A model generated the notes under the pieces. That model worked only from the letters and a program-made list of their open reading frames with translations, had not been told where the DNA came from and ran no database searches. This document shows, in pieces, positions 924 through 8,507 of a stretch of DNA of 64,000 nucleotides. Within the stretch, counting starts at the first letter, position 1; every line of letters begins with the position of its first letter. Position numbers and translations under genes: made by a program. The DNA is from Capsulimonadaceae bacterium (GTDB lineage Bacteria; Armatimonadota; Armatimonadia; Armatimonadales; Capsulimonadaceae). The stretch lies in NCBI GenBank assembly GCA_965215505.1, contig OZ244065.1, positions 4,224,001 to 4,288,000 on the forward strand, in the 5' to 3' direction.

Positions 924-2030
924 TCAAGGTTTCACGATCCTTCGCAGCAGCGACGCCCAATGGACGCCGTAAAGGGTGAGGAACGTCAGCGCATAGTGCG
1001 CGGCGTTGCCGGCCGTCGGGCGGGGCTGGCCCGGCGTCCACTGTGTCGGGCGTGGGACTTCCGGCGGGTCGAACCGGTCAAAGTAGTGATGGCTGATGAG
1101 CCATTGGCGCGACGGGAAGACGATGCGCCACAGGGCATGGGCGCGGGCCTGGGGGCTTCCGAGCAGGTGCCAGAGCAGCGGGAGACGCAGGCGCTCGGTC
1201 CGGGCGGCGGCGACGTCCTCGATGCTGTCGGCGGCGCGCGCCTCGCTGATCCGCTCCAGGCGAGCGCGCCCGGCGCGTGGCGCGAGCGAATCCAGAACTT
1301 CGAGCGGGACGGGCGTTCCCAACAGCCGCGCCGCCGCGAACAGGGCGGCGAAGCAGGCCGTGGATGCCCCCGCCGATCCGGCGATGCGGACGAACAGCGG
1401 CCAGTCCACTGTGCTGACCGAGCAGACCTGTGCGATGTCGCGCAAGGACTGCGAGGCGGCCAGGGAGTGCCCCGCTAGGTGCAGGCAGAGGTGAAGTATC
1501 TGGTCTTCCGTCCCGAGTACCCGCCCGTCCGTTCCCGCCAGACGCGCCGGCCGGGCGCGGTCCCACAGGCCCGCGTCATCAACGTGGAACTTGCCGAAGA
1601 AGAGGTCGTTATTGATCAGCTCGGTGTGCAGCTCGACCACTATAGGGCCACGCTCCGTGTGGTTGAAAAAGTTGGCCTGACAGTCGCGGCCCCGGATGAC
1701 CTCCTCCCATTGCAGGGGATCAACGACATACCCCAGCGAATCCAGCAGCGTCCGGGCGCGGGCGGCGTCTTCTGGGCGCACCAGCACGTCCAGGTCTCCG
1801 AACCGGCGCAGGCTGGGGCGCGGGTAGACCGTCTCGGCCAGCGCCGCCCCCTTGAGGACGAGCAGGTCCAGTTTTGCCTCGGTGCAGAGACTCAGCAGAG
1901 CGGCCAGGTGCGGGCGGAAGAAAGCGAACTGGACGAGGGCCGCGACTTCCTCCAGCGCCTCTCCTTCGGGGAGGCGCTGGGCGAAGGGAAACTCCGTTCC
2001 TGTTTGGCTTGCATCAAGGGTGAGAAACAT
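924..2030 (-). CDS. Nucleotidyltransferase family protein (NTP_transf_5-like)
   Basis: LKGAALAETVYPRPSLRRFGDLDVLV motif, VELH, and L..EDQILHLCLH...LRDI. Confidence 0.85.
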   Translation of the reverse strand: MFLTLDASQTGTEFPFAQRLPEGEALEEVAALVQFAFFRPHLAALLSLCTEAKLDLLVLKGAALAETVYPRPSLRRFGDLDVLVRPEDAARARTLLDSLGYVVDPLQWEEVIRGRDCQANFFNHTERGPIVVELHTELINNDLFFGKFHVDDAGLWDRARPARLAGTDGRVLGTEDQILHLCLHLAGHSLAASQSLRDIAQVCSVSTVDWPLFVRIAGSAGASTACFAALFAAARLLGTPVPLEVLDSLAPRAGRARLERISEARAADSIEDVAAARTERLRLPLLWHLLGSPQARAHALWRIVFPSRQWLISHHYFDRFDPPEVPRPTQWTPGQPRPTAGNAAHYALTFLTLYGVHWASLLRRIVKP

Positions 2031-2151
2031 AAAAACCCGAGAAGGCCCGCCGACCTTCCCCGAAAGATGAGGAAAGTCGGCAGGCCGCCGATTTGCGCTC
2101 CTTAGGTGAGTGCAAAAGCCTGGTTCCCGCGAACCACTTCAGCCCTGTCCT

Positions 2152-2916
2152 CTACCTGCCGGTCCGATCCACGCATTTGCCGCGCGGGCCTGGGAGGAAG
2201 CCGGCGCAGCAGGGGAGCGAGTTGTTGATGTAATTGTAGGTCTGCCCATGCGCGGCACAGGGGAGGGACACACTCGCCGGACCGACATAGAAATCGTTGC
2301 TGTTGATCCCCGTCGCCGGTGAAGAAGTGCTGCTGATGGTGGCCCGCGTGATTAGGTTGTTCACGTTCGTCTGCGCCCCGACAAAAACTGCGGTCCCGGC
2401 GGATGAGGTGTTGTCCGTCGGCCCGAAGGTGAAACTGCCTAGCGAGGTGTTCCCGTTGAAGACGGTCAGCGTGAAGGTTTCCGTGTCCGCATTGAAGTCC
2501 TGGGCGAATAGCCCGAACCCGGTGACACCGTTCTGGAAGCTGATCTGGAGAGGCCCCGTGGCCGTGGGGCTGACGGAGCCGTTGAAGAGTTCTTCCAACA
2601 CGTTCCCCGACCCGAACTGCGGGCCGACCGTCAAGTCAGAGGTGTAGCTCTGAAACCCGCCGCCCGGTGTACCGTTCGTTGCCGAATAGGTCAGGGTGTT
2701 GGTGCCCGCTGTCACTGTGAACGAGGACGGTCCGCTCGCGCCGCTCCCGGAGGTAGTGGGGTAGGGGGCCGTCTGGACAGGGCTGAACAATTGGCTTGGG
2801 CTGGTCACTATCGTGGCCTGCCCCTGTACCGCACGCCAGCCCAGGGTCGCGAAGGTGCAGAGCGCGAGCGCAGTCCATAAGGAGCTGTTGAGGCGGTTTT
2901 TGTGATGGTTGTTCAT
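2152..2916 (-). CDS. Secreted Ser/Thr-rich protein, paralog of the PEP-CTERM protein at 3877-4719, ending in a Cys-rich tail
   Basis: Signal peptide; shares TGPLQI.F.NGV..FGLF.Q, FVGAQ....NLITR and DFY.GP with 3877-4719; ends CAAHGQTYNY...PCCAGFLPGPRGKCVDRTGR. Confidence 0.85.
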   Translation of the reverse strand: MNNHHKNRLNSSLWTALALCTFATLGWRAVQGQATIVTSPSQLFSPVQTAPYPTTSGSGASGPSSFTVTAGTNTLTYSATNGTPGGGFQSYTSDLTVGPQFGSGNVLEELFNGSVSPTATGPLQISFQNGVTGFGLFAQDFNADTETFTLTVFNGNTSLGSFTFGPTDNTSSAGTAVFVGAQTNVNNLITRATISSTSSPATGINSNDFYVGPASVSLPCAAHGQTYNYINNSLPCCAGFLPGPRGKCVDRTGR

Positions 2917-3242
2917 GGTAATCCTTTCGAGCCAGTGCTGTTGCCTCCACTCAAGCTCCTTCGTCTCGTTTCAGTGCCGGGCTTCCACCCCGCCGTTGTC
3001 TCGCTGCCCAATCAGGACTTCATAACTTTCCTGCCATTGTACCCGATTCGTTCGCGATTTTTCTTTCACTACGCGGCGGACCCAGCCAGACGGAGGAAGA
3101 CTGAATCCGGAGGAAGATTGAGTCAGGAGGAAAACTAAATCAGGAGGAATGCGTCATGCAGGCAGGTGACGGAGTAGTAACCAGAGGCGGCCTGCCGCTT
3201 GCTCCCGGAGGCAGGGCAAATGCAACAGGCCGTCAGAACTTG

Positions 3243-3279
3243 AAAAGCCGGGGCGGCATCCCGTAAAACCGCCCCCGGC
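3243..3279 (-). terminator. Intrinsic terminator after the PqqD/RRE gene
   Basis: Minus strand GCCGGGGGCGG..CCGCCCCGGC hairpin followed by TTTT. Confidence 0.6.
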
Positions 3280-3287
3280 AGATATGC

Positions 3288-3323
3288 CTCGGGAGTATGC
3301 TTACATGGCTCGGGAGTATGCTT
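3288..3323. repeat. 15-bp direct repeat CTCGGGAGTATGCTT x2 (period 21)
   Basis: Copies at 3288-3302 and 3309-3323. Confidence 0.8.
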
Positions 3324-3327
3324 GGGG

Positions 3328-3843
3328 TCAGCGTCCAGTCCGGTCAACACATTTGCCGCGTGGTCCGGGGGAATATCCTGAGCAGCAGGGACGTATGGTG
3401 CCTGTTGCCAGGCCGGTGTAGTCAAAGGTCTGCCCGTGTCCAGCACATCTAGTAGACGCCGCCATCGCGGGCGTCGGGGCGACCATGCTCTGGACCACCG
3501 GCAAGAGGAGGGACACACCGCCGACCAAGGCCGCCTTCTGAAGTACCTGTCTTCGCGTGACTCGTCTGGCCTCTTCCGCTCGTACCAGCGGGATTTGCAG
3601 CAGGTGTTCTTTTCCCAAACGGTCCAGCGCAAGCCAGACCATGTCCTCGGTCACCGGTGTTGCCATCTCGCCTTGCAGGGTTTCCACAAGAGCGGCCACC
3701 GTATGCCGGCCATCGCAGTGACGCCAGACCATCGCAGCGGTCCGGTTCAGACGGTGAACATGGTCACGCTGCTCATCATAAATGATGGTTTCATCACCGA
3801 TCTCCTGGACGACAAGGCGGTCCGCTCGTGCTTGTGGTTTCAT
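3328..3843 (-). CDS. PqqD/RRE-domain protein fused to a Tat-like leader and Cys-rich C-terminal peptide
   Basis: N-terminal ~90 aa PqqD-like (QEIGDETIIYD..HRLNRTAAMVWRHCDG); then TRRQVL..hydrophobic..APTPAMAAS; then CAGHGQTFDY...PCCSGYSPGPRGKCVDRTGR. Confidence 0.85.
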   Translation of the reverse strand: MKPQARADRLVVQEIGDETIIYDEQRDHVHRLNRTAAMVWRHCDGRHTVAALVETLQGEMATPVTEDMVWLALDRLGKEHLLQIPLVRAEEARRVTRRQVLQKAALVGGVSLLLPVVQSMVAPTPAMAASTRCAGHGQTFDYTGLATGTIRPCCSGYSPGPRGKCVDRTGR

Positions 3844-3876
3844 TGCTTTCCTATCTCAGCACTTTCCAAATGTCGG

Positions 3877-4719
3877 CTAGCCGGCGGCCTTCTGCGCGGA
3901 CTGTCGGCCGGCGTTCACCTTACGCCGGCGCGCGGAAAGGACGACGCCGGCGAACAGCAGCGTTCCCATGCCGAAGCCCACGACGGTCGAAGCCTCCGGG
4001 ACTGGAGCCGTGAACTGGTAGCTGATGGGGCCGAAGTAGAAGTCGCCTGTCGCGGTGGTGTTGGACATGTCCGTCAGGACGACCCTGGTGATCAGGTTCC
4101 CCGCCAGGGCTTGGGCGCCGACGAACGTCGCGTTGCCCCCTTGAGTCGGCCCGGAACCGGACGTGTTGAGTACGTCCAGAGTAGAGAAACTGCCGAGTGG
4201 GATGGTGCCGTTGGGGCCGCCAAAGACGGAAAAGTTGAAGTGGTATGTGTCTGTACCAGCGGACTGTCCGAAAAGGCCGAATTCATTGACGCCATTGCTG
4301 AAGTCAATCTGGAGAGGCCCAGTCGGAGGCGCGGTCGCTTTAGACGTGTTAAAGTCGAAGGTTTCGATCAGATGTGTCGCGTAAGGAAAAGCATTCGTGT
4401 CGAGCGCCGGCAGGTTCGTGATCGGGTTGGGTTGGTTGACGAAGGTGTCGAAGGCGGTGGCACTCGCCGGCTCAGTCTGCGATGTGAACGTCACCCCCGT
4501 TCCGGGAGAATTCAGCAAGTAGCCAGAAGGGAGCGTCCCGTTGGTGGTGTCAAACTGCGGCGTCATGCTCGCCCCCGGCCCCAGCTGGGATGGCATCGTG
4601 AGCTGGGTCGCCAGTTGTGCCTGGGCCGCCCGTCCGCCTAGGGCTGTGAGGGCGCAGAGCGTGACGGCGGCGGCGAGTTGCTTGCTGTGATCGTATTTGT
4701 GCATGGTAGTTTCTTTCAA
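3877..4719 (-). CDS. PEP-CTERM sorting domain surface protein
   Basis: Signal peptide; C-terminus PVPEASTVVGFG + TM helix + RRRK; alternative start at 4704. Confidence 0.9.
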   Translation of the reverse strand: MKETTMHKYDHSKQLAAAVTLCALTALGGRAAQAQLATQLTMPSQLGPGASMTPQFDTTNGTLPSGYLLNSPGTGVTFTSQTEPASATAFDTFVNQPNPITNLPALDTNAFPYATHLIETFDFNTSKATAPPTGPLQIDFSNGVNEFGLFGQSAGTDTYHFNFSVFGGPNGTIPLGSFSTLDVLNTSGSGPTQGGNATFVGAQALAGNLITRVVLTDMSNTTATGDFYFGPISYQFTAPVPEASTVVGFGMGTLLFAGVVLSARRRKVNAGRQSAQKAAG

Positions 4720-4901
4720 AAGTCTTTATGGTCTACGCCCACGCCTCCAGGGGCGCGAGTGGCTGCGGGTAAACCCATGCACCATCGGCTGCACGGGTGA
4801 GAAAACGGGCAGCGCCCGAAAACTGTTATCGCTTGGGAAGCCTTCTTCACAGGTTTCGTTGCGCGGCGTCGCGGGATGTCCCCGAACGTGGGCAAAATTC
4901 T

Positions 4902-5828
4902 TTAGCGCTCTGGCCCGTCCCCGCCGGCCTCTTCCCCACATAAGCGTTCCCGCAGCCAGGCGACAACCCGGTCGGCCTCGCCCCGCTTGCTCTGGAACGC
5001 CTCGGCACCGAGGGCCGCTCTCTGAAGAATCTGCATCGCCGCCTGCGGCTGCCGGCGGACCTGGACGGTGTTGTCCAGCAGTGTCAGCATCGCCCGGCCC
5101 GGCGATTGGGGCCGGGGCCGCCAGCGCGCGCCCGCCTCGTACCGGGCCGCGAGGATCATCCCGACCGGCAGCGGCCCGGTCGCGGCCCGCCCGCCCAATG
5201 CCTCGACGGGGACCGTCTCGCCCGGCCCGCCTTCCGCGTCCCGGAGTGACAGGGGCCGGGCGTAAGGGTGGACATGGCCGCCCTCGTCGAAGACCGCATA
5301 CTCGTCGGAGAAGTATGTCGCCCCCGCCGCCGCCAGGGCCGCCACCAGGCTACTCTTCCCGCTGAAGGTACGCCCCGGAATGACCACGGCTTTCCCGCCC
5401 CACCCGACGACGCCGGCGTGGACGAAGAGACGGTCCCGCGCCTGCTCCGCCACCTGCCCGTGCAGGCCGGAGGTCAGCGCCTGGATGGCCTCGTCCGCCC
5501 TGCGCGTGTGCGCCACCCGGCAGGTCCCCCGGTACAAAAAATAGTGCGGCTCGGGATGCGCCCGCGACCGGCTCTCCACCACGGCCAGCGAGAACAGGCC
5601 GTCCACGGTCGGTGTGGGGGCAGGCTCCGCGCCGGGCGGCAGGTGATCCGTCAGACGATCGAGCAGCGCGGCGTCCGTGGCGCGGACGCCGATCCGGGCA
5701 CCGTGACTGACGAAGGCCAGCCCGGCCGCCCAGCGGAACCTCTCCAGAGCCTTCCAGCAGGGGGAGGAAGCGTCGGGCGGCTGTTCCAGCGTCGGCAGCC
5801 GCGCCCCATCTCTTTGCTCGACCGTCAC
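4902..5828 (-). CDS. HprK-related P-loop kinase
   Basis: FVHAGVV...IPGRTFSGKSSL (Walker A) and YFSDEYAV, the HPr-kinase-like pattern; GTG start. Confidence 0.8.
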   Translation of the reverse strand: MTVEQRDGARLPTLEQPPDASSPCWKALERFRWAAGLAFVSHGARIGVRATDAALLDRLTDHLPPGAEPAPTPTVDGLFSLAVVESRSRAHPEPHYFLYRGTCRVAHTRRADEAIQALTSGLHGQVAEQARDRLFVHAGVVGWGGKAVVIPGRTFSGKSSLVAALAAAGATYFSDEYAVFDEGGHVHPYARPLSLRDAEGGPGETVPVEALGGRAATGPLPVGMILAARYEAGARWRPRPQSPGRAMLTLLDNTVQVRRQPQAAMQILQRAALGAEAFQSKRGEADRVVAWLRERLCGEEAGGDGPER

Positions 5829-6132: not shown

Positions 6133-7944
6133 ATGCCTAGACAGCCTTATCCCCACACGCGAACACCCACGGAGGCCCGGCGAACTGGGCAGCGGCGACG
6201 CTCGGCGGGCGGAGGGTCCTCTGCGGGGAGCTGGCTCGCCGATCATGCCCTCCTCGTCTGCCTCTCCGGCCTCCTCGTCCTCGCCTTCCTGGCCGAGATG
6301 CCCTGGCTGTCCCGGCCCCTGCGGTCCCACCTGCTGCAAGCTGCCGTTGTCCTGATCTATACCCTGATCGCCGCCGCAGGCCCCGCCTCGGGCCGGGTGA
6401 CCCGTGACTCCCTGCGCGGCCCCTCCCTCTGGCTGCTCGGGCTGCTGGCCTGGAGCGGCCTGAGCGCCGCCCTCGCGCCGTACCCCGCCTTTGCCGCCTC
6501 CGAGCTGCTGCGGCTCGCCCTGGGCGCGGGCGTCTACTTCGTGGCGGCCCACGTCCTGCGGCCCCACGAGGCGCGGCTCCTCCCCCTCTTCCTGCTCGGC
6601 CTGGGCGCGGCCGTCGGCCTGTACGGCCTGATTGAATTCGGGGCGGAAGGCAACTTCGGCACCGGGGCGATCCACAGCGTCTTCGGCAACCACGAGCAGC
6701 TCGGATCGTTCCTCGTCCTCCTGCTGCCGCTCGGGCTGGCGCTCGCCCTGGACCGCAGCGAGGGGTTAAAGAAGCGCCTGCTGTTCGCGCAGGGCGCGGC
6801 CCTGGTCATCGGCGCGGCCCTGCTGCTGGCGCGCACCCGCTCCGCCTGGCTCGGGGCGACGGCCGGGCTTGTCCTGCTGGCCTTCCTGACATTGCGCTAT
6901 TCGTCCATCCGGCTGACCCGCAGCAACCGCGCCCTCGTCATCGGCCCGGCGCTGATTCTGGTGCTGGCCTTCACGGGCCTGCTCGTCTTCGGCGAACTCG
7001 CCCCGCTCGTCTCGCACCGGGCAGCGACCCTGGCGCACGCGGGCGATGACACTTCCCTCGCCGACCGCCTGCACCGCTGGCGGTCGGCCTGCCGGATGGC
7101 CTCCGAAAAGCCGGTCACCGGCTGGGGCCTGGGCGCGTGGCCGGTCATGCAGGGGCGCTGGACGCACCAGGGCGACGACGTCAGCGAGGTGCTGGGGGCG
7201 GGTACGGGCCATTCCAACCTCGCCCACAACTTCTGGGCGCAGTGGGCCGCCGAGACGGGCGGGGTCGGCCTGGCCCTCCATCTCGGCGTCCTGGCCGCTT
7301 TCCTGCTGGCGGGCCTGCGCGCGCTGCCCCGACTGGACCGGGAGCGGCGGACTTTGCTCCTAGGCTGCCTCGCCGCCGCCGCAGCGGGCGGCGTGGACAT
7401 GGCCGGTGCCCCCTCCTACACCTTCCCCGGCGTCTCCTCCCTGTTCTGGGTCACGCTGGGCCTGGGCGTCGCCCTGCTGCCCGGACCCGGCGGGGCGCGG
7501 GCGACGCGCCGTTTCGACTGGCTGATTCCCCTGAGCGCTGGACTCGCCGCCGCCCTGGCCGTTGTGGGCATCGGCGACAGGCTCCGCGCGGACGGGCGGG
7601 CGGCCCCGCGCGGGACCCTGACCGTGACCGCCCAGCCGCCCGGCCCGGTCGCGCCCGGAACGCGTGTCCTGTGGACCGCCACCTACCATGCCCCCGACGG
7701 CACGGCCCGCCCGACCGCGCCAGGCACCGTCTGGAAGGTCACGGAAGGCGGCCTGACGAAGACCAGCCCGACCTTCCTGTTCCTGAACCGGGAACCCCAG
7801 CGCTCCGGCTGGCAGGGCAACATCGCCCCCGGTGTGAGCCGGGTGACAGTAACGGCGTACTACTGGGACCAGTTCAGCCGCCCCTACCAAGTTTCTTTGC
7901 CTGTGGCCGTCAAAACTGTCAAAAACCCTGTTGCAAATCCGTAA
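6133..7944 (+). CDS. O-antigen ligase/Wzy_C family membrane protein with C-terminal beta-rich extracytoplasmic domain
   Basis: Many TM helices; FGNHEQLG, TRSAWLG, R...W....M....P..GWGLG, AHNFW motifs. Confidence 0.85.
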   Translation: MPRQPYPHTRTPTEARRTGQRRRSAGGGSSAGSWLADHALLVCLSGLLVLAFLAEMPWLSRPLRSHLLQAAVVLIYTLIAAAGPASGRVTRDSLRGPSLWLLGLLAWSGLSAALAPYPAFAASELLRLALGAGVYFVAAHVLRPHEARLLPLFLLGLGAAVGLYGLIEFGAEGNFGTGAIHSVFGNHEQLGSFLVLLLPLGLALALDRSEGLKKRLLFAQGAALVIGAALLLARTRSAWLGATAGLVLLAFLTLRYSSIRLTRSNRALVIGPALILVLAFTGLLVFGELAPLVSHRAATLAHAGDDTSLADRLHRWRSACRMASEKPVTGWGLGAWPVMQGRWTHQGDDVSEVLGAGTGHSNLAHNFWAQWAAETGGVGLALHLGVLAAFLLAGLRALPRLDRERRTLLLGCLAAAAAGGVDMAGAPSYTFPGVSSLFWVTLGLGVALLPGPGGARATRRFDWLIPLSAGLAAALAVVGIGDRLRADGRAAPRGTLTVTAQPPGPVAPGTRVLWTATYHAPDGTARPTAPGTVWKVTEGGLTKTSPTFLFLNREPQRSGWQGNIAPGVSRVTVTAYYWDQFSRPYQVSLPVAVKTVKNPVANP

Positions 7945-8039: not shown

Positions 8040-8507
8040 ATGACGCTTTCACAAAGACTCACACGCGCCGGGCTGGTCTTCATCCTGCTGGGTTCCGTCG
8101 CCGCCGCTCTGCCACAGCAGAATGGCGCTGCGTCCGCTGACCCAAACGGCTGCTTCACGGGTACGCCAGGCCGCTTTGCCATCTCTAACAGCGCACCTGC
8201 AACTGATTCAACGACTGTTACCGCCAATTACACAGTGTCCACACAAGGCACCACATTCAATTTCTATTTCTCCCCTGACTCTACCAGCGCCTATAGCTCG
8301 GTGACACCGACCACTAGCTCGATTGTTGTGAACACTGGCTCACTCATCATCAATGGTGCAACAGTGGCAGCAACCGGCTCAGTCAGTAACAGTTCTGCTT
8401 CGGAGAACATAGCGCAGAATGGAGCAAACACCGGAAGTTCGACCTTCACGAGTAGCTACACAAGTGGCAGTAACACTTATAAGGCCTCGATCACGGTCGG
8501 TGCGTAG
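8040..8507 (+). CDS. Small secreted Ser/Thr-rich hypothetical protein
   Basis: Signal peptide; beta-strand-like S/T-rich mature part; lower GC than neighbours; own promoter and terminator. Confidence 0.75.
   Translation: MTLSQRLTRAGLVFILLGSVAAALPQQNGAASADPNGCFTGTPGRFAISNSAPATDSTTVTANYTVSTQGTTFNFYFSPDSTSAYSSVTPTTSSIVVNTGSLIINGATVAATGSVSNSSASENIAQNGANTGSSTFTSSYTSGSNTYKASITVGA

What the first reader, a model, noticed from the sequence alone, without database searches (positions are those of the whole stretch)
924..5828. Cyclase-less RiPP-like cluster: HprK-related kinase, RRE-fused precursor and nucleotidyltransferase interleaved with PEP-CTERM-family surface proteins
Seen: five co-oriented genes (kinase, PEP-CTERM protein, RRE-leader-Cys peptide fusion, PEP-CTERM paralog with the same Cys tail, NTP_transf_5). 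Established: an HPr-kinase-like enzyme, an RRE and a nucleotidyltransferase together are the tailoring set of phosphorylated/glycosylated lasso peptide clusters (paeninodin, pseudomycoidin). Here no lasso cyclase and no B2 protease is present, and the cluster lies next to a large polysaccharide locus. Inference: an undescribed modification/export system that phosphorylates and nucleotidylates or glycosylates an exported Cys-rich peptide or surface proteins, possibly linking them to the glycan coat.
Basis: partly seen in the sequence, partly recalled or inferred. Interest (0 to 1): 0.85.

Follow-up and report, generated by a model that had tools for sequence, protein, structure and literature searches.

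The report
Self-chaperoned exported knottin-like peptide cassette
This bacterium carries a conserved, untested gene set in which a small disulfide-bonded peptide is fused to its own recognition domain and an export-like signal and is probably phosphorylated and sugar-capped by two neighbouring enzymes, while a second secreted protein next door ends in a matching copy of the same peptide.

Summary
The five genes are real. The core is a three-gene cassette: an HprK-like kinase, an RRE-leader-Cys-core fusion and an NTP_transf_5 enzyme. Both enzymes flank the fusion in 51 of 79 loci from several phyla. It works like the linear polyphosphorylated peptides (LPP; Popov 2026), so 'cyclase-less kinase-RRE-NTase' is already described. 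It differs from LPP in four ways: the RRE is fused to its precursor; the leader is Tat-like and ends in AxA; the core is knottin-like; no dedicated peptidase or exporter is present. Ser130 lies 15 residues after the LxxPxV proline, the same spacing as LPP's modified Ser3. Ser/Thr is found there in 82 of 91 and 119 of 132 relatives. Correction: 2152-2916 is not a PEP-CTERM protein. It is a PEP-CTERM paralog whose anchor has been replaced by a copy of the peptide core. In 6 of 6 pairs this tail matches its own locus's core best, which points to concerted evolution. The PEP-CTERM gene was found only in this genus, and glycan genes are not obligatory neighbours. This scan already noted the fusion family on other DNA; two look-ups found no note on the matched tail. 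Modification and export are inferred, not shown.

The parts
4902..5828 (-). HprK-related kinase (308 aa); predicted peptide Ser kinase, like PadeK, PsmK and LppK
   Evidence: TIGR04352 E 3e-20, below cut-off. H137, G157-K158 and S174-D175-E176 are each kept in 57 of 57 aligned family members.
3877..4719 (-). PEP-CTERM-type surface protein (likely start ATG 4704; sorting signal 3880-4002); accessory gene found only in this genus
   Evidence: PF07589 weak; VPEAS-TM-RRRK tail. Directly upstream of the fusion in 16 of 16 same-genus loci; not found in 14 loci of other families.
3328..3843 (-). RRE-leader-core fusion precursor (171 aa)
   Evidence: 2,396 clusters at 50% identity with E <= 1e-30.
3580..3843 (-). 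RRE (PqqD/B1-type) domain, residues 1-88
   Evidence: Block pLDDT 87-97; best fold matches are the lasso B1 proteins 6jx3 and 5v1u.
3460..3567 (-). Internal twin-arginine-like leader, residues 93-128: RR, hydrophobic stretch, LxxPxV (3493-3510), xSIVAPT, AxA site
   Evidence: RR in 93 of 93, P115 in 92, P123 in 92. The isolated leader scores 19.1 bits on TIGR01409 against a cut-off of 16.7; 12 of 33 members match at E <= 0.1.
3454..3456 (-). Ser130, +2 of the predicted mature peptide; candidate phospho-acceptor
   Evidence: Ser/Thr in 82 of 91 and 119 of 132; 15 residues after the motif Pro, as for LPP P-13 to S3.
3331..3459 (-). Predicted mature core (43 aa), four Cys (C-x19-CC-x10-C); knottin-like, lacking the C2/C5 pair
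   Evidence: Aligns with six-Cys C-C-CC-C-C cores of relatives. The model's 28 matches at Z >= 2 are mostly knottins; best 1ag7, Z 3.1, rmsd 1.7, 31 aligned.
2152..2916 (-). Secreted chimera (254 aa): Sec-type signal, domain paralogous to 3877-4719, C-terminal copy of the peptide core (2155-2259) instead of PEP-CTERM
   Evidence: Nine chimeras form one clade, support 100/99. Tails match their own locus's core.
924..2030 (-). NTP_transf_5 nucleotidyltransferase-fold enzyme (368 aa); PsmN/LppN-like by family
   Evidence: PF14907 E 2e-38. G61, D79, D81 and D198 are each kept in 59 of 59 aligned members.

Best explanation
The cassette is an LPP-like, modify-then-export system whose precursor carries its own RRE. 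Shown: the gene anatomy, the conservation, the folds as models, and intact catalytic motifs. Inferred steps: (1) In the cytoplasm the RRE binds the LxxPxV motif of its own (or a sister molecule's) leader, which shields the export signal and presents the precursor to the kinase. (2) The kinase (poly)phosphorylates Ser130. (3) The NTP_transf_5 enzyme caps the phosphate with a sugar, as PsmN does in pseudomycoidin. (4) The precursor is exported by Tat, with the RRE left inside as an extended n-region. Housekeeping signal peptidase I cuts after A126-M-A128, and the 43-residue core is oxidised to a two-disulfide knottin-like module with a phospho(glyco)-Ser near its N-terminus. (5) The module acts as a surface binding or docking unit rather than a freely acting antibiotic. 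In one lineage a copy of it replaced the membrane anchor of a duplicated PEP-CTERM protein, and that copy has since been kept matched to the local core by repeated gene conversion plus selection on the protein sequence.
For: Co-occurrence: kinase and NTase both present in 51 of 79 loci, and in 44 of 57 loci with at least 2.5 kb on each side; L106 carries a further NTase that the clustering missed. Among 61 related genomes, strong matches to both kinase and fusion occur in 18 and to neither in 41; the 2 discordant genomes break at contig ends. Substrate status: two loci (L083, L106) insert YcaO genes (YcaO and SagB identified in L083; the L106 pair clusters with them) behind fusions with Gly/Ser/Cys cores. 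Acceptor: Ser/Thr at Pro+15 in 82 of 91 and 119 of 132, against at most 29% and 18% at the other core positions tallied; LPP has the same spacing. RRE motif: L/V/I at Pro-3 in 87 of 91 and V/I at Pro+2 in 90 of 91; YxxP-to-LxxP variation is described in PMC12710340 section 7. Complex prediction of RRE with its leader gave weak support only: 0.34 against a best control of 0.00. That mark was reached by 116 of 157 solved complexes and 2 of 215 mismatches, but at 0.60 or under by only 18 of the 157 and by both mismatches. The runs agree in at least 87% of contacts, partner pLDDT is at least 50, and the pass may reflect likeness to solved B1-leader complexes. Export: RR invariant; TIGR01409 over its cut-off; TatC and S26 peptidases elsewhere in the genome. 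Three genomes where the kinase was not found keep RR, LP and AxA but lose xSIVAP in 4 of 4 proteins. Matched tails: 6 of 6 chimera tails score best with their own locus's core (1 of 720 permutations; identity 69-85% within loci against 43-82% between chimeras, only one such pair above 67%). In the three pairs read from DNA, 26 of 73 identical residues differ in codon.
Against: No experiment exists. The RR motif lies 96 residues from the N-terminus behind a folded domain, which is not the usual Tat position. The AlphaFold2 monomer does not dock the leader on the RRE (residues 114-128 have pLDDT under 50). 15 of 79 loci have neither enzyme nearby, and 10 of 14 loci from other families show no adjacent kinase, although 9 of those 12 genomes encode it somewhere. 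A small polar residue at +2 is common after signal peptides (own knowledge), and no matched Tat-substrate control was run. Two of the four kinase-less proteins still have Ser/Thr at +2. Leader Ser119 is even more conserved (89 of 91 Ser/Thr, partly by construction of the anchor pattern). LppN gave no product in the LPP study. The loci are kin and are the best 80 of 391 candidates, so the counts are not independent. Three of the six tail pairs were matched only by equal contig length.
Confidence: 0.55

Rival explanations
1. The kinase modifies the leader serine (Ser119 of xSIVAP) or uses that segment as a switch. Phosphorylation and nucleotidylation would then gate export or cleavage, and the mature peptide would be unmodified.
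For: Ser/Thr at this position in 89 of 91 (partly fixed by the anchor pattern) and 90 of 93 by alignment column. This segment is the one lost in all four kinase-less fusions. Cores vary from knottins to collagen-like and fibre-like cargo.
Against: [quoted passage not shown] The kinase-less proteins come from three related genomes, so about one event.
Confidence: 0.15
2. The RR-hydrophobic-AxA stretch is a RiPP leader, not a Tat signal. The peptide is released by another protease (for example the C25-domain proteins next to many relatives) and leaves by another route.
For: The RR is internal. C25-peptidase-domain proteins lie beside the fusion in 14 of 79 loci and in three more loci examined. 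LPP uses a dedicated SpI peptidase and an ABC exporter.
Against: No peptidase or peptide exporter lies in this cassette or its same-genus orthologues. The leader passes the TIGR01409 cut-off. Disulfide-type cores need an oxidising compartment (own knowledge).
Confidence: 0.13
3. One reading: the enzymes decorate the PEP-CTERM surface proteins, or couple the products to the neighbouring polysaccharide.
For: The PEP gene sits inside the cassette in 16 of 16 same-genus loci. Glycan genes are enriched nearby (17 of 49 against 33 of 387). Three exosortase genes are in the genome. LPP and paeninodin clusters also lie by capsule loci.
Against: The surface proteins lack the leader motif. The PEP gene was found in only 16 of 79 loci, all from this phylum, and in 0 of 14 loci of other families. 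0 of 9 Gemmatimonadota loci have a glycan gene by this proxy. The large polysaccharide locus is not adjacent in most same-genus loci.
Confidence: 0.1
4. For the chimera only: the matched tail is a neutral by-product of gene conversion between near-tandem genes and has no docking role.
For: The two tails lie about 1.2 kb apart in the same orientation. Codon differences among identical residues are rarer within loci (26 of 73) than in the cross-locus comparisons, as conversion predicts. The chimera was found in only 1 of 16 other same-genus loci, so it is dispensable.
Against: All nine chimeras keep an intact frame and four Cys. In this window 12 of 24 identical residues use different codons, so the protein sequence has been held while the DNA drifted.
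Confidence: 0.3
5. The enzymes are orphan tailoring genes of a lasso peptide cluster elsewhere in the genome.
For: The enzyme set is that of the paeninodin and pseudomycoidin clusters. Five Asn_synthase-family matches exist, and pseudomycoidin can form without B proteins.
Against: No PF13471 match. The only other PqqD match is weak and lies in an ABC-transporter operon. The cassette travels with the fusion across phyla.
Confidence: 0.03

Closest known systems
Linear polyphosphorylated peptides (LPP; lppA-K-B-S-D-N of Paenibacillus alginolyticus; Popov et al. 2026, PMC13381572; abstract, passages and sections 6, 7, 8, 12 read; supplements not seen)
   Same: No cyclase; RRE + HprK-like kinase + NTP transferase; xxPxV recognition motif with a Ser 15 residues after the Pro; signal-peptidase-I-type cleavage just before that Ser; variable C-termini; often near polysaccharide genes.
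   Different: Here the RRE is fused to the precursor. The motif has an aliphatic residue instead of Tyr. The leader has an invariant RR and a hydrophobic stretch. There is no dedicated SpI peptidase or MsbA exporter. The cores are Cys-rich and knottin-like. The hosts are Armatimonadota, Acidobacteriota, Gemmatimonadota and others rather than mostly Bacillota.
Paeninodin and pseudomycoidin tailoring set (PadeK, PsmK, PsmN; PMC8498205 and PMC6993621, passages read)
   Same: HPr-kinase homolog plus NTP transferase with a DxD motif; PsmN adds one or two hexoses to phospho-Ser.
   Different: No macrolactam synthetase in the cassette and no B2 match in the genome; the candidate Ser is near the N-terminus of the core, not C-terminal.
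HPr-rel-A system (NCBIfam TIGR04352 + TIGR04353)
   Same: Kinase and PqqD-type RRE cassette of unknown function; the NTase as third gene is recalled, not from a call.
   Different: The kinase scores 72 against a cut-off of 200; the RRE has no TIGR04353 match at E <= 0.01; the RRE is fused to a precursor.
Inhibitor cystine knot (knottin) miniproteins; KNOTTIN database (PMC5753296, passages read) lists a bacterial knottin family with no experimental structure
   Same: C-C-CC-C-C spacing in 41 of 91 family cores; core profile and model match knottin structures.
   Different: The window's core has four Cys, so it cannot form a true knot. The likeness rests on Cys spacing and low Z-scores and shows no function.
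PEP-CTERM/exosortase surface proteins
   Same: 3877-4719 has the signal, VPEAS motif, TM helix and basic cluster; three exosortase genes and about 66 ORFs with such tails are in the genome.
   Different: 2152-2916 has the same N-terminal domain but a peptide-core copy in place of the sorting signal.

Membership tests
LPP | HprK-like kinase and NTP transferase beside an RRE, no macrolactam cyclase | tested here: met
LPP | Discrete RRE with a separate precursor gene | tested here: not met
   RRE and precursor form one ORF here and across the family.
LPP | Dedicated archaeal-type SpI peptidase and MsbA-like exporter in the cluster | tested here: not met
   None of 7 PF10502 matches lies near the cassette; flanking genes annotated.
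LPP | YxxPxVLxHQxIxFETxxS consensus | tested here: not met
   The consensus here is [LVI]xxPx[VI]xSIVAPTxAxAxS; only the PxV and the Pro-to-Ser spacing agree.
LPP | Kinase-dependent polyphosphorylation of the core Ser | not testable with these tools
   Needs co-expression and MS.
Phosphorylated lasso peptides | Macrolactam synthetase in the cluster and B2 protease | tested here: not met
   No PF13471 match; the nearest PF00733 match is 217 kb away.
HPr-rel-A system | TIGR04352 and TIGR04353 above curated cut-offs | tested here: not met
   72.4 against 200 bits; no TIGR04353 match at E <= 0.01.
Tat substrates | S/T-R-R-x-hydrophobic motif, h-region and AxA site | tested here: met
   TIGR01409 19.1 against 16.7 bits on the isolated leader, but 16.5 on the whole protein. 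A TatFind-like pattern (rule recalled, position limit dropped) matched 249 of 267.
Tat substrates | Signal near the N-terminus | tested here: not met
   RR at residues 97-98, behind the RRE.
Tat substrates | TatC-dependent export | not testable with these tools
   tatC is present; dependence needs an experiment.
Knottins (ICK) | Six Cys forming three interlocked disulfides | tested here: not met
   Four Cys in the window's core; 41 of 91 relatives have six-Cys spacing, connectivity not tested.
Knottins (ICK) | Knottin backbone fold | tested here: inconclusive
   Model pLDDT 77, built with six-Cys relatives in the alignment; best Z 3.1, rmsd 1.7, 31 aligned; no Foldseek match at E <= 0.001.
PEP-CTERM proteins (2152-2916) | C-terminal PEP motif, TM helix and basic cluster | tested here: not met
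PEP-CTERM proteins (3877-4719) | C-terminal PEP motif, TM helix and basic cluster | tested here: met
   Visible in the sequence; the PF07589 score is below its cut-off.

The most novel reading that the evidence does not exclude
The RRE-plus-leader is a portable, self-chaperoning 'modify-then-export' tag: the RRE masks its own internal Tat signal until the kinase and transferase have built a phospho-sugar on residue +2 of whatever cargo follows. The cargo forms a very large family of bacterial knottin-like miniproteins. In this lineage the knottin-like module is a strain-specific docking code, used both as a modified free peptide and as a replacement for the PEP-CTERM anchor of a secreted protein, with the two copies kept matched by concerted evolution.
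Probability: 0.3. Interest if true: 0.85.

Novelty: new variant of a known kind. Interest (0 to 1): 0.62.

Why it matters
The kinase-RRE-NTase cassettes have mostly lacked a named substrate. Here the substrate is fused to the RRE, so the system can be tested with three genes and one predicted residue (Ser130). If right, it extends LPP chemistry to thousands of sequence clusters in poorly cultured phyla. It would also show an RRE and a Tat signal sharing one leader, and it would supply natural, modified bacterial knottin-like scaffolds, for which the KNOTTIN passage read (2017) says no experimental structure existed. The matched-tail chimera gives a handle on the biological role, which is unknown for LPP and paeninodins: whatever binds the peptide core should also bind the chimera's tail.

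Tried and rejected
Lasso machinery in the genome: no B2 match; the second PqqD hit is unrelated; the weak Cys-tail hit at genome position 743916 is a non-coding frame over another gene. Solved-structure search with the kinase gave nothing at E < 0.1. The family profile did not retrieve LppB from the PDB copy, so RRE pocket residues could not be compared. Search for stand-alone leader precursors of 23-81 aa gave 14 hits that look like fragments or late starts of fusions; inconclusive. Expression: no RNA holder listed. Promoter and terminator scans were at chance level (1 against 0.7, and 4 against 4.0); the hairpin at 2039-2060 is not counted as evidence. The fold of the surface-protein domain was not determined: no Pfam or NCBIfam match, the Atlas gave only unnamed clusters, and no model was built. 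The Atlas lists the fusion family only as hypothetical or PqqD proteins. Literature searches that found no description of the fused family: (open-licence PMC and bioRxiv only). In the two RRE-Finder papers (PMC7470986 passages; PMC12710340 passages and sections 6, 7) the terms HPr, kinase and nucleotidyltransferase do not occur in the main text; their supplements and data sets were not seen and may list these proteins. Rows dropped before counts: 1 of 92 and 15 of 147 lacked the anchor pattern. The alignment showed 18 of the 30 non-self hits; all 31 hits were classed. Only 6 of 9 chimeras had a paired RRE sequence. Gene calls in fetched loci are my own longest-ORF heuristic. The ORF 3135-3632 and the plus-strand ORFs over the cassette were treated as spurious because they overlap conserved genes.

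Full report
Observation. The five minus-strand ORFs are present at the stated coordinates. Family searches give an HprK-related kinase (TIGR04352, E 3e-20, below cut-off), a PqqD/RRE domain at the start of 3328-3843 and NTP_transf_5 for 924-2030. 3877-4719 ends in VPEAS, a hydrophobic helix and RRRK. 2152-2916 shares its N-terminal domain with that protein (38%) but ends in a Cys module that is 24 of 39 identical to the end of the RRE protein; it is not a PEP-CTERM protein. The single-contig genome (96% complete) has no B2 protease match, its five Asn_synthase matches are at least 217 kb away, and it has tatC, three exosortases and S26 peptidases elsewhere. The closest relatives carry record titles of Armatimonadota, several of them Capsulimonadaceae.

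What travels together. The fusion is found in 16 of 23 other genomes of the genus, in the order kinase, PEP protein, fusion, NTase wherever the contig allows. Among 61 related genomes, kinase and fusion are both strongly matched in 18 and both unmatched in 41; the two exceptions break at contig ends. In 79 loci from Armatimonadota, Acidobacteriota, Gemmatimonadota, Rokuibacteriota, Planctomycetota and others (the best of 391 candidates), both enzymes are present in 51, one in 13 and neither in 15. The family profile retrieves 2,396 clusters at E <= 1e-30. In the phylum it is patchy: 25 of 301 genomes. The PEP gene occurs in 16 of the 79 loci, all from this phylum, and in none of 14 loci from its other families. 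Glycan genes are near in 17 of 49 long loci and in 0 of 9 Gemmatimonadota loci, against 33 of 387 control tiles (a lower bound). So the core is three genes; the surface proteins and the polysaccharide locus are local context. These loci are kin, so the counts overstate independence.

Anatomy of the fusion. Residues 1-88 model as an RRE with high confidence, and the best fold matches are lasso B1 proteins (Z 11.0, rmsd 2.6, 83 aligned). Then come RR (93 of 93), a hydrophobic stretch, P115 (92), S119, P123 (92) and an AxA site. The isolated leader passes the Tat-signal cut-off, but it lies behind a folded domain. Around P115 the pattern is [LVI]xxPx[VI] (87 and 90 of 91), an aliphatic version of the lasso and LPP recognition motif; PMC12710340 section 7 notes YxxP-to-LxxP variation. 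Two residues after the AxA site stands Ser or Thr in 82 of 91 and in 119 of 132 of a second set, 15 residues after the Pro. In LPP the motif Pro is -13 and the phosphorylated residue is S3, also 15 steps. The monomer model does not dock the leader (pLDDT under 50). The two-chain prediction gave weak support: 0.34 against 0.00 for the best control, a range reached by only 18 of 157 solved complexes and by both mismatches that passed, and possibly from likeness to solved B1-leader complexes. Cores are variable: 41 of 91 have six-Cys knottin spacing, 14 the four-Cys form seen here, 31 other Cys patterns and 5 almost none. The four-Cys form lacks exactly the second and fifth Cys, which pair with each other in knottins (own knowledge). 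Its model matches mostly knottins at low Z (best 3.1). Two loci place YcaO genes (with SagB in L083) after fusions with Gly/Ser/Cys cores, which supports reading the fusion as a precursor. Three genomes in which this kinase was not found carry the RRE-leader on long fibre-like cargo; RR, LP and AxA remain while xSIVAP is lost in 4 of 4 proteins, and Ser/Thr at +2 remains in 2 of 4.

The chimera. Of 31 database hits, 9 end in the Cys module and 22 in PEP-CTERM. The nine form one clade by their N-terminal domain (100/99, midpoint root for drawing only), so one origin is the simplest reading. If the tails had simply descended from that event, chimera tails should resemble each other more than their local cores. 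Instead, in 6 of 6 pairs the tail scores best with its own locus's core (1 of 720 permutations; 69-85% identity within loci against 43-82% between chimeras, with only one such pair above 67%). Within loci 26 of 73 identical residues differ in codon, 12 of 24 in this window. That fits repeated gene conversion followed by selection on the protein. The chimera has a Sec-type signal and no RRE leader, and Ser/Thr three residues before its first Cys is kept in only 5 of 9, so it is probably not modified. It was found in only 1 of 16 other same-genus loci.

Mechanism. I commit to this order: the RRE binds its own leader; the kinase phosphorylates Ser130; the NTP_transf_5 enzyme adds a sugar to the phosphate, by analogy with PsmN, although LppN gave no product; Tat export and signal peptidase I release a 43-residue disulfide-bonded peptide that acts as a surface docking module (0.55). 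Both enzymes keep their catalytic motifs. All chemical and export steps are inferred. Rivals are leader-Ser gating (0.15), a non-Tat route (0.13), action on surface proteins or glycan (0.10) and orphan lasso tailoring (0.03). For the chimera alone, neutral conversion has 0.3.

Comparison and novelty. It works like LPP (PMC13381572) but fails membership on the discrete RRE, the dedicated peptidase and exporter, and the leader consensus. It is below the cut-offs of the HPr-rel-A models. Eight searches of the held literature found no description of the fused family; subscription papers and supplements were not seen. Earlier notes of this scan describe the same fusion layout on other genomes; they are unchecked leads and came after my reading was set. 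Two look-ups found no note on the matched tail. Verdict: a new variant of a known kind, real and directly testable, with one locus-specific feature, the matched tail, that may reveal what these peptides do. Interest 0.62.

Noticed in passing
L128:6299-9183, L131:5246-8680: [quoted passage not shown] L129, L130 and L132 have similar kinase and NTase cassettes (discrete RRE identified in L129 and L132). No precursor was sought.
   Followed up: partly
L083:8001-13202, L106:6956-13403: YcaO cyclodehydratase and SagB-type genes inserted between the RRE fusion and the NTase; the cores are Gly/Ser/Cys-rich, suggesting azole-containing members.
   Followed up: partly
L067, L073, L077, L092, L103, L120, L123: A gene weakly similar to flagellin lysine methylase FliB accompanies the cassette in 7 loci; cores there average 9% Lys against 2% elsewhere.
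   Followed up: partly
L151:5916-9885, L152:5765-6958, L153:5936-7138: The RRE-leader is fused to about 270-330 residues of fibre-like cargo without a Pfam match, in genomes where the kinase was not found; L154 has collagen-like Gly-x-Thr cargo.
   Followed up: partly
L123:4442-7759, L146:3722-6196, L149:6986-10534, L155:2409-6377: Large secreted proteins with a C-terminal peptidase C25 domain lie beside the fusion in 14 of 79 loci and in further loci; possibly a sortase-like or processing partner.
   Followed up: no
P0186, P0235: Some fusions carry larger C-terminal domains; by recalled motifs one looks like a metal-binding JAB/MPN-type domain and one like an intein/Hint domain.
   Followed up: no
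window 3091-3141 and 3284-3323: Three tandem 17-nt repeats and two 19-nt repeats in the gap between fusion and chimera; the patterns occur nowhere else in the genome and not in L051 or L140.
   Followed up: partly
window 6133-7944 (+), 8040-8507 (+), 8662-36728 (-): A divergent O-antigen-ligase-like gene and a small secreted Ser/Thr-rich protein separate the cassette from a long polysaccharide locus with GT2, GT4, GT10, GT47 and GT87 enzymes, Wzm/Wzt, Wza and Wzc.
   Followed up: partly
L072, L073, L082, L091, L092, L103: In Gemmatimonadota the cassette sits upstream of rpsL-rpsG-fusA, after rpoC in five of these six loci, sometimes with up to three precursor copies.
   Followed up: no
L060: A record titled Janthinobacterium lividum holds the cassette in the Armatimonadota arrangement, so the title is probably a binning or naming error.
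   Followed up: no
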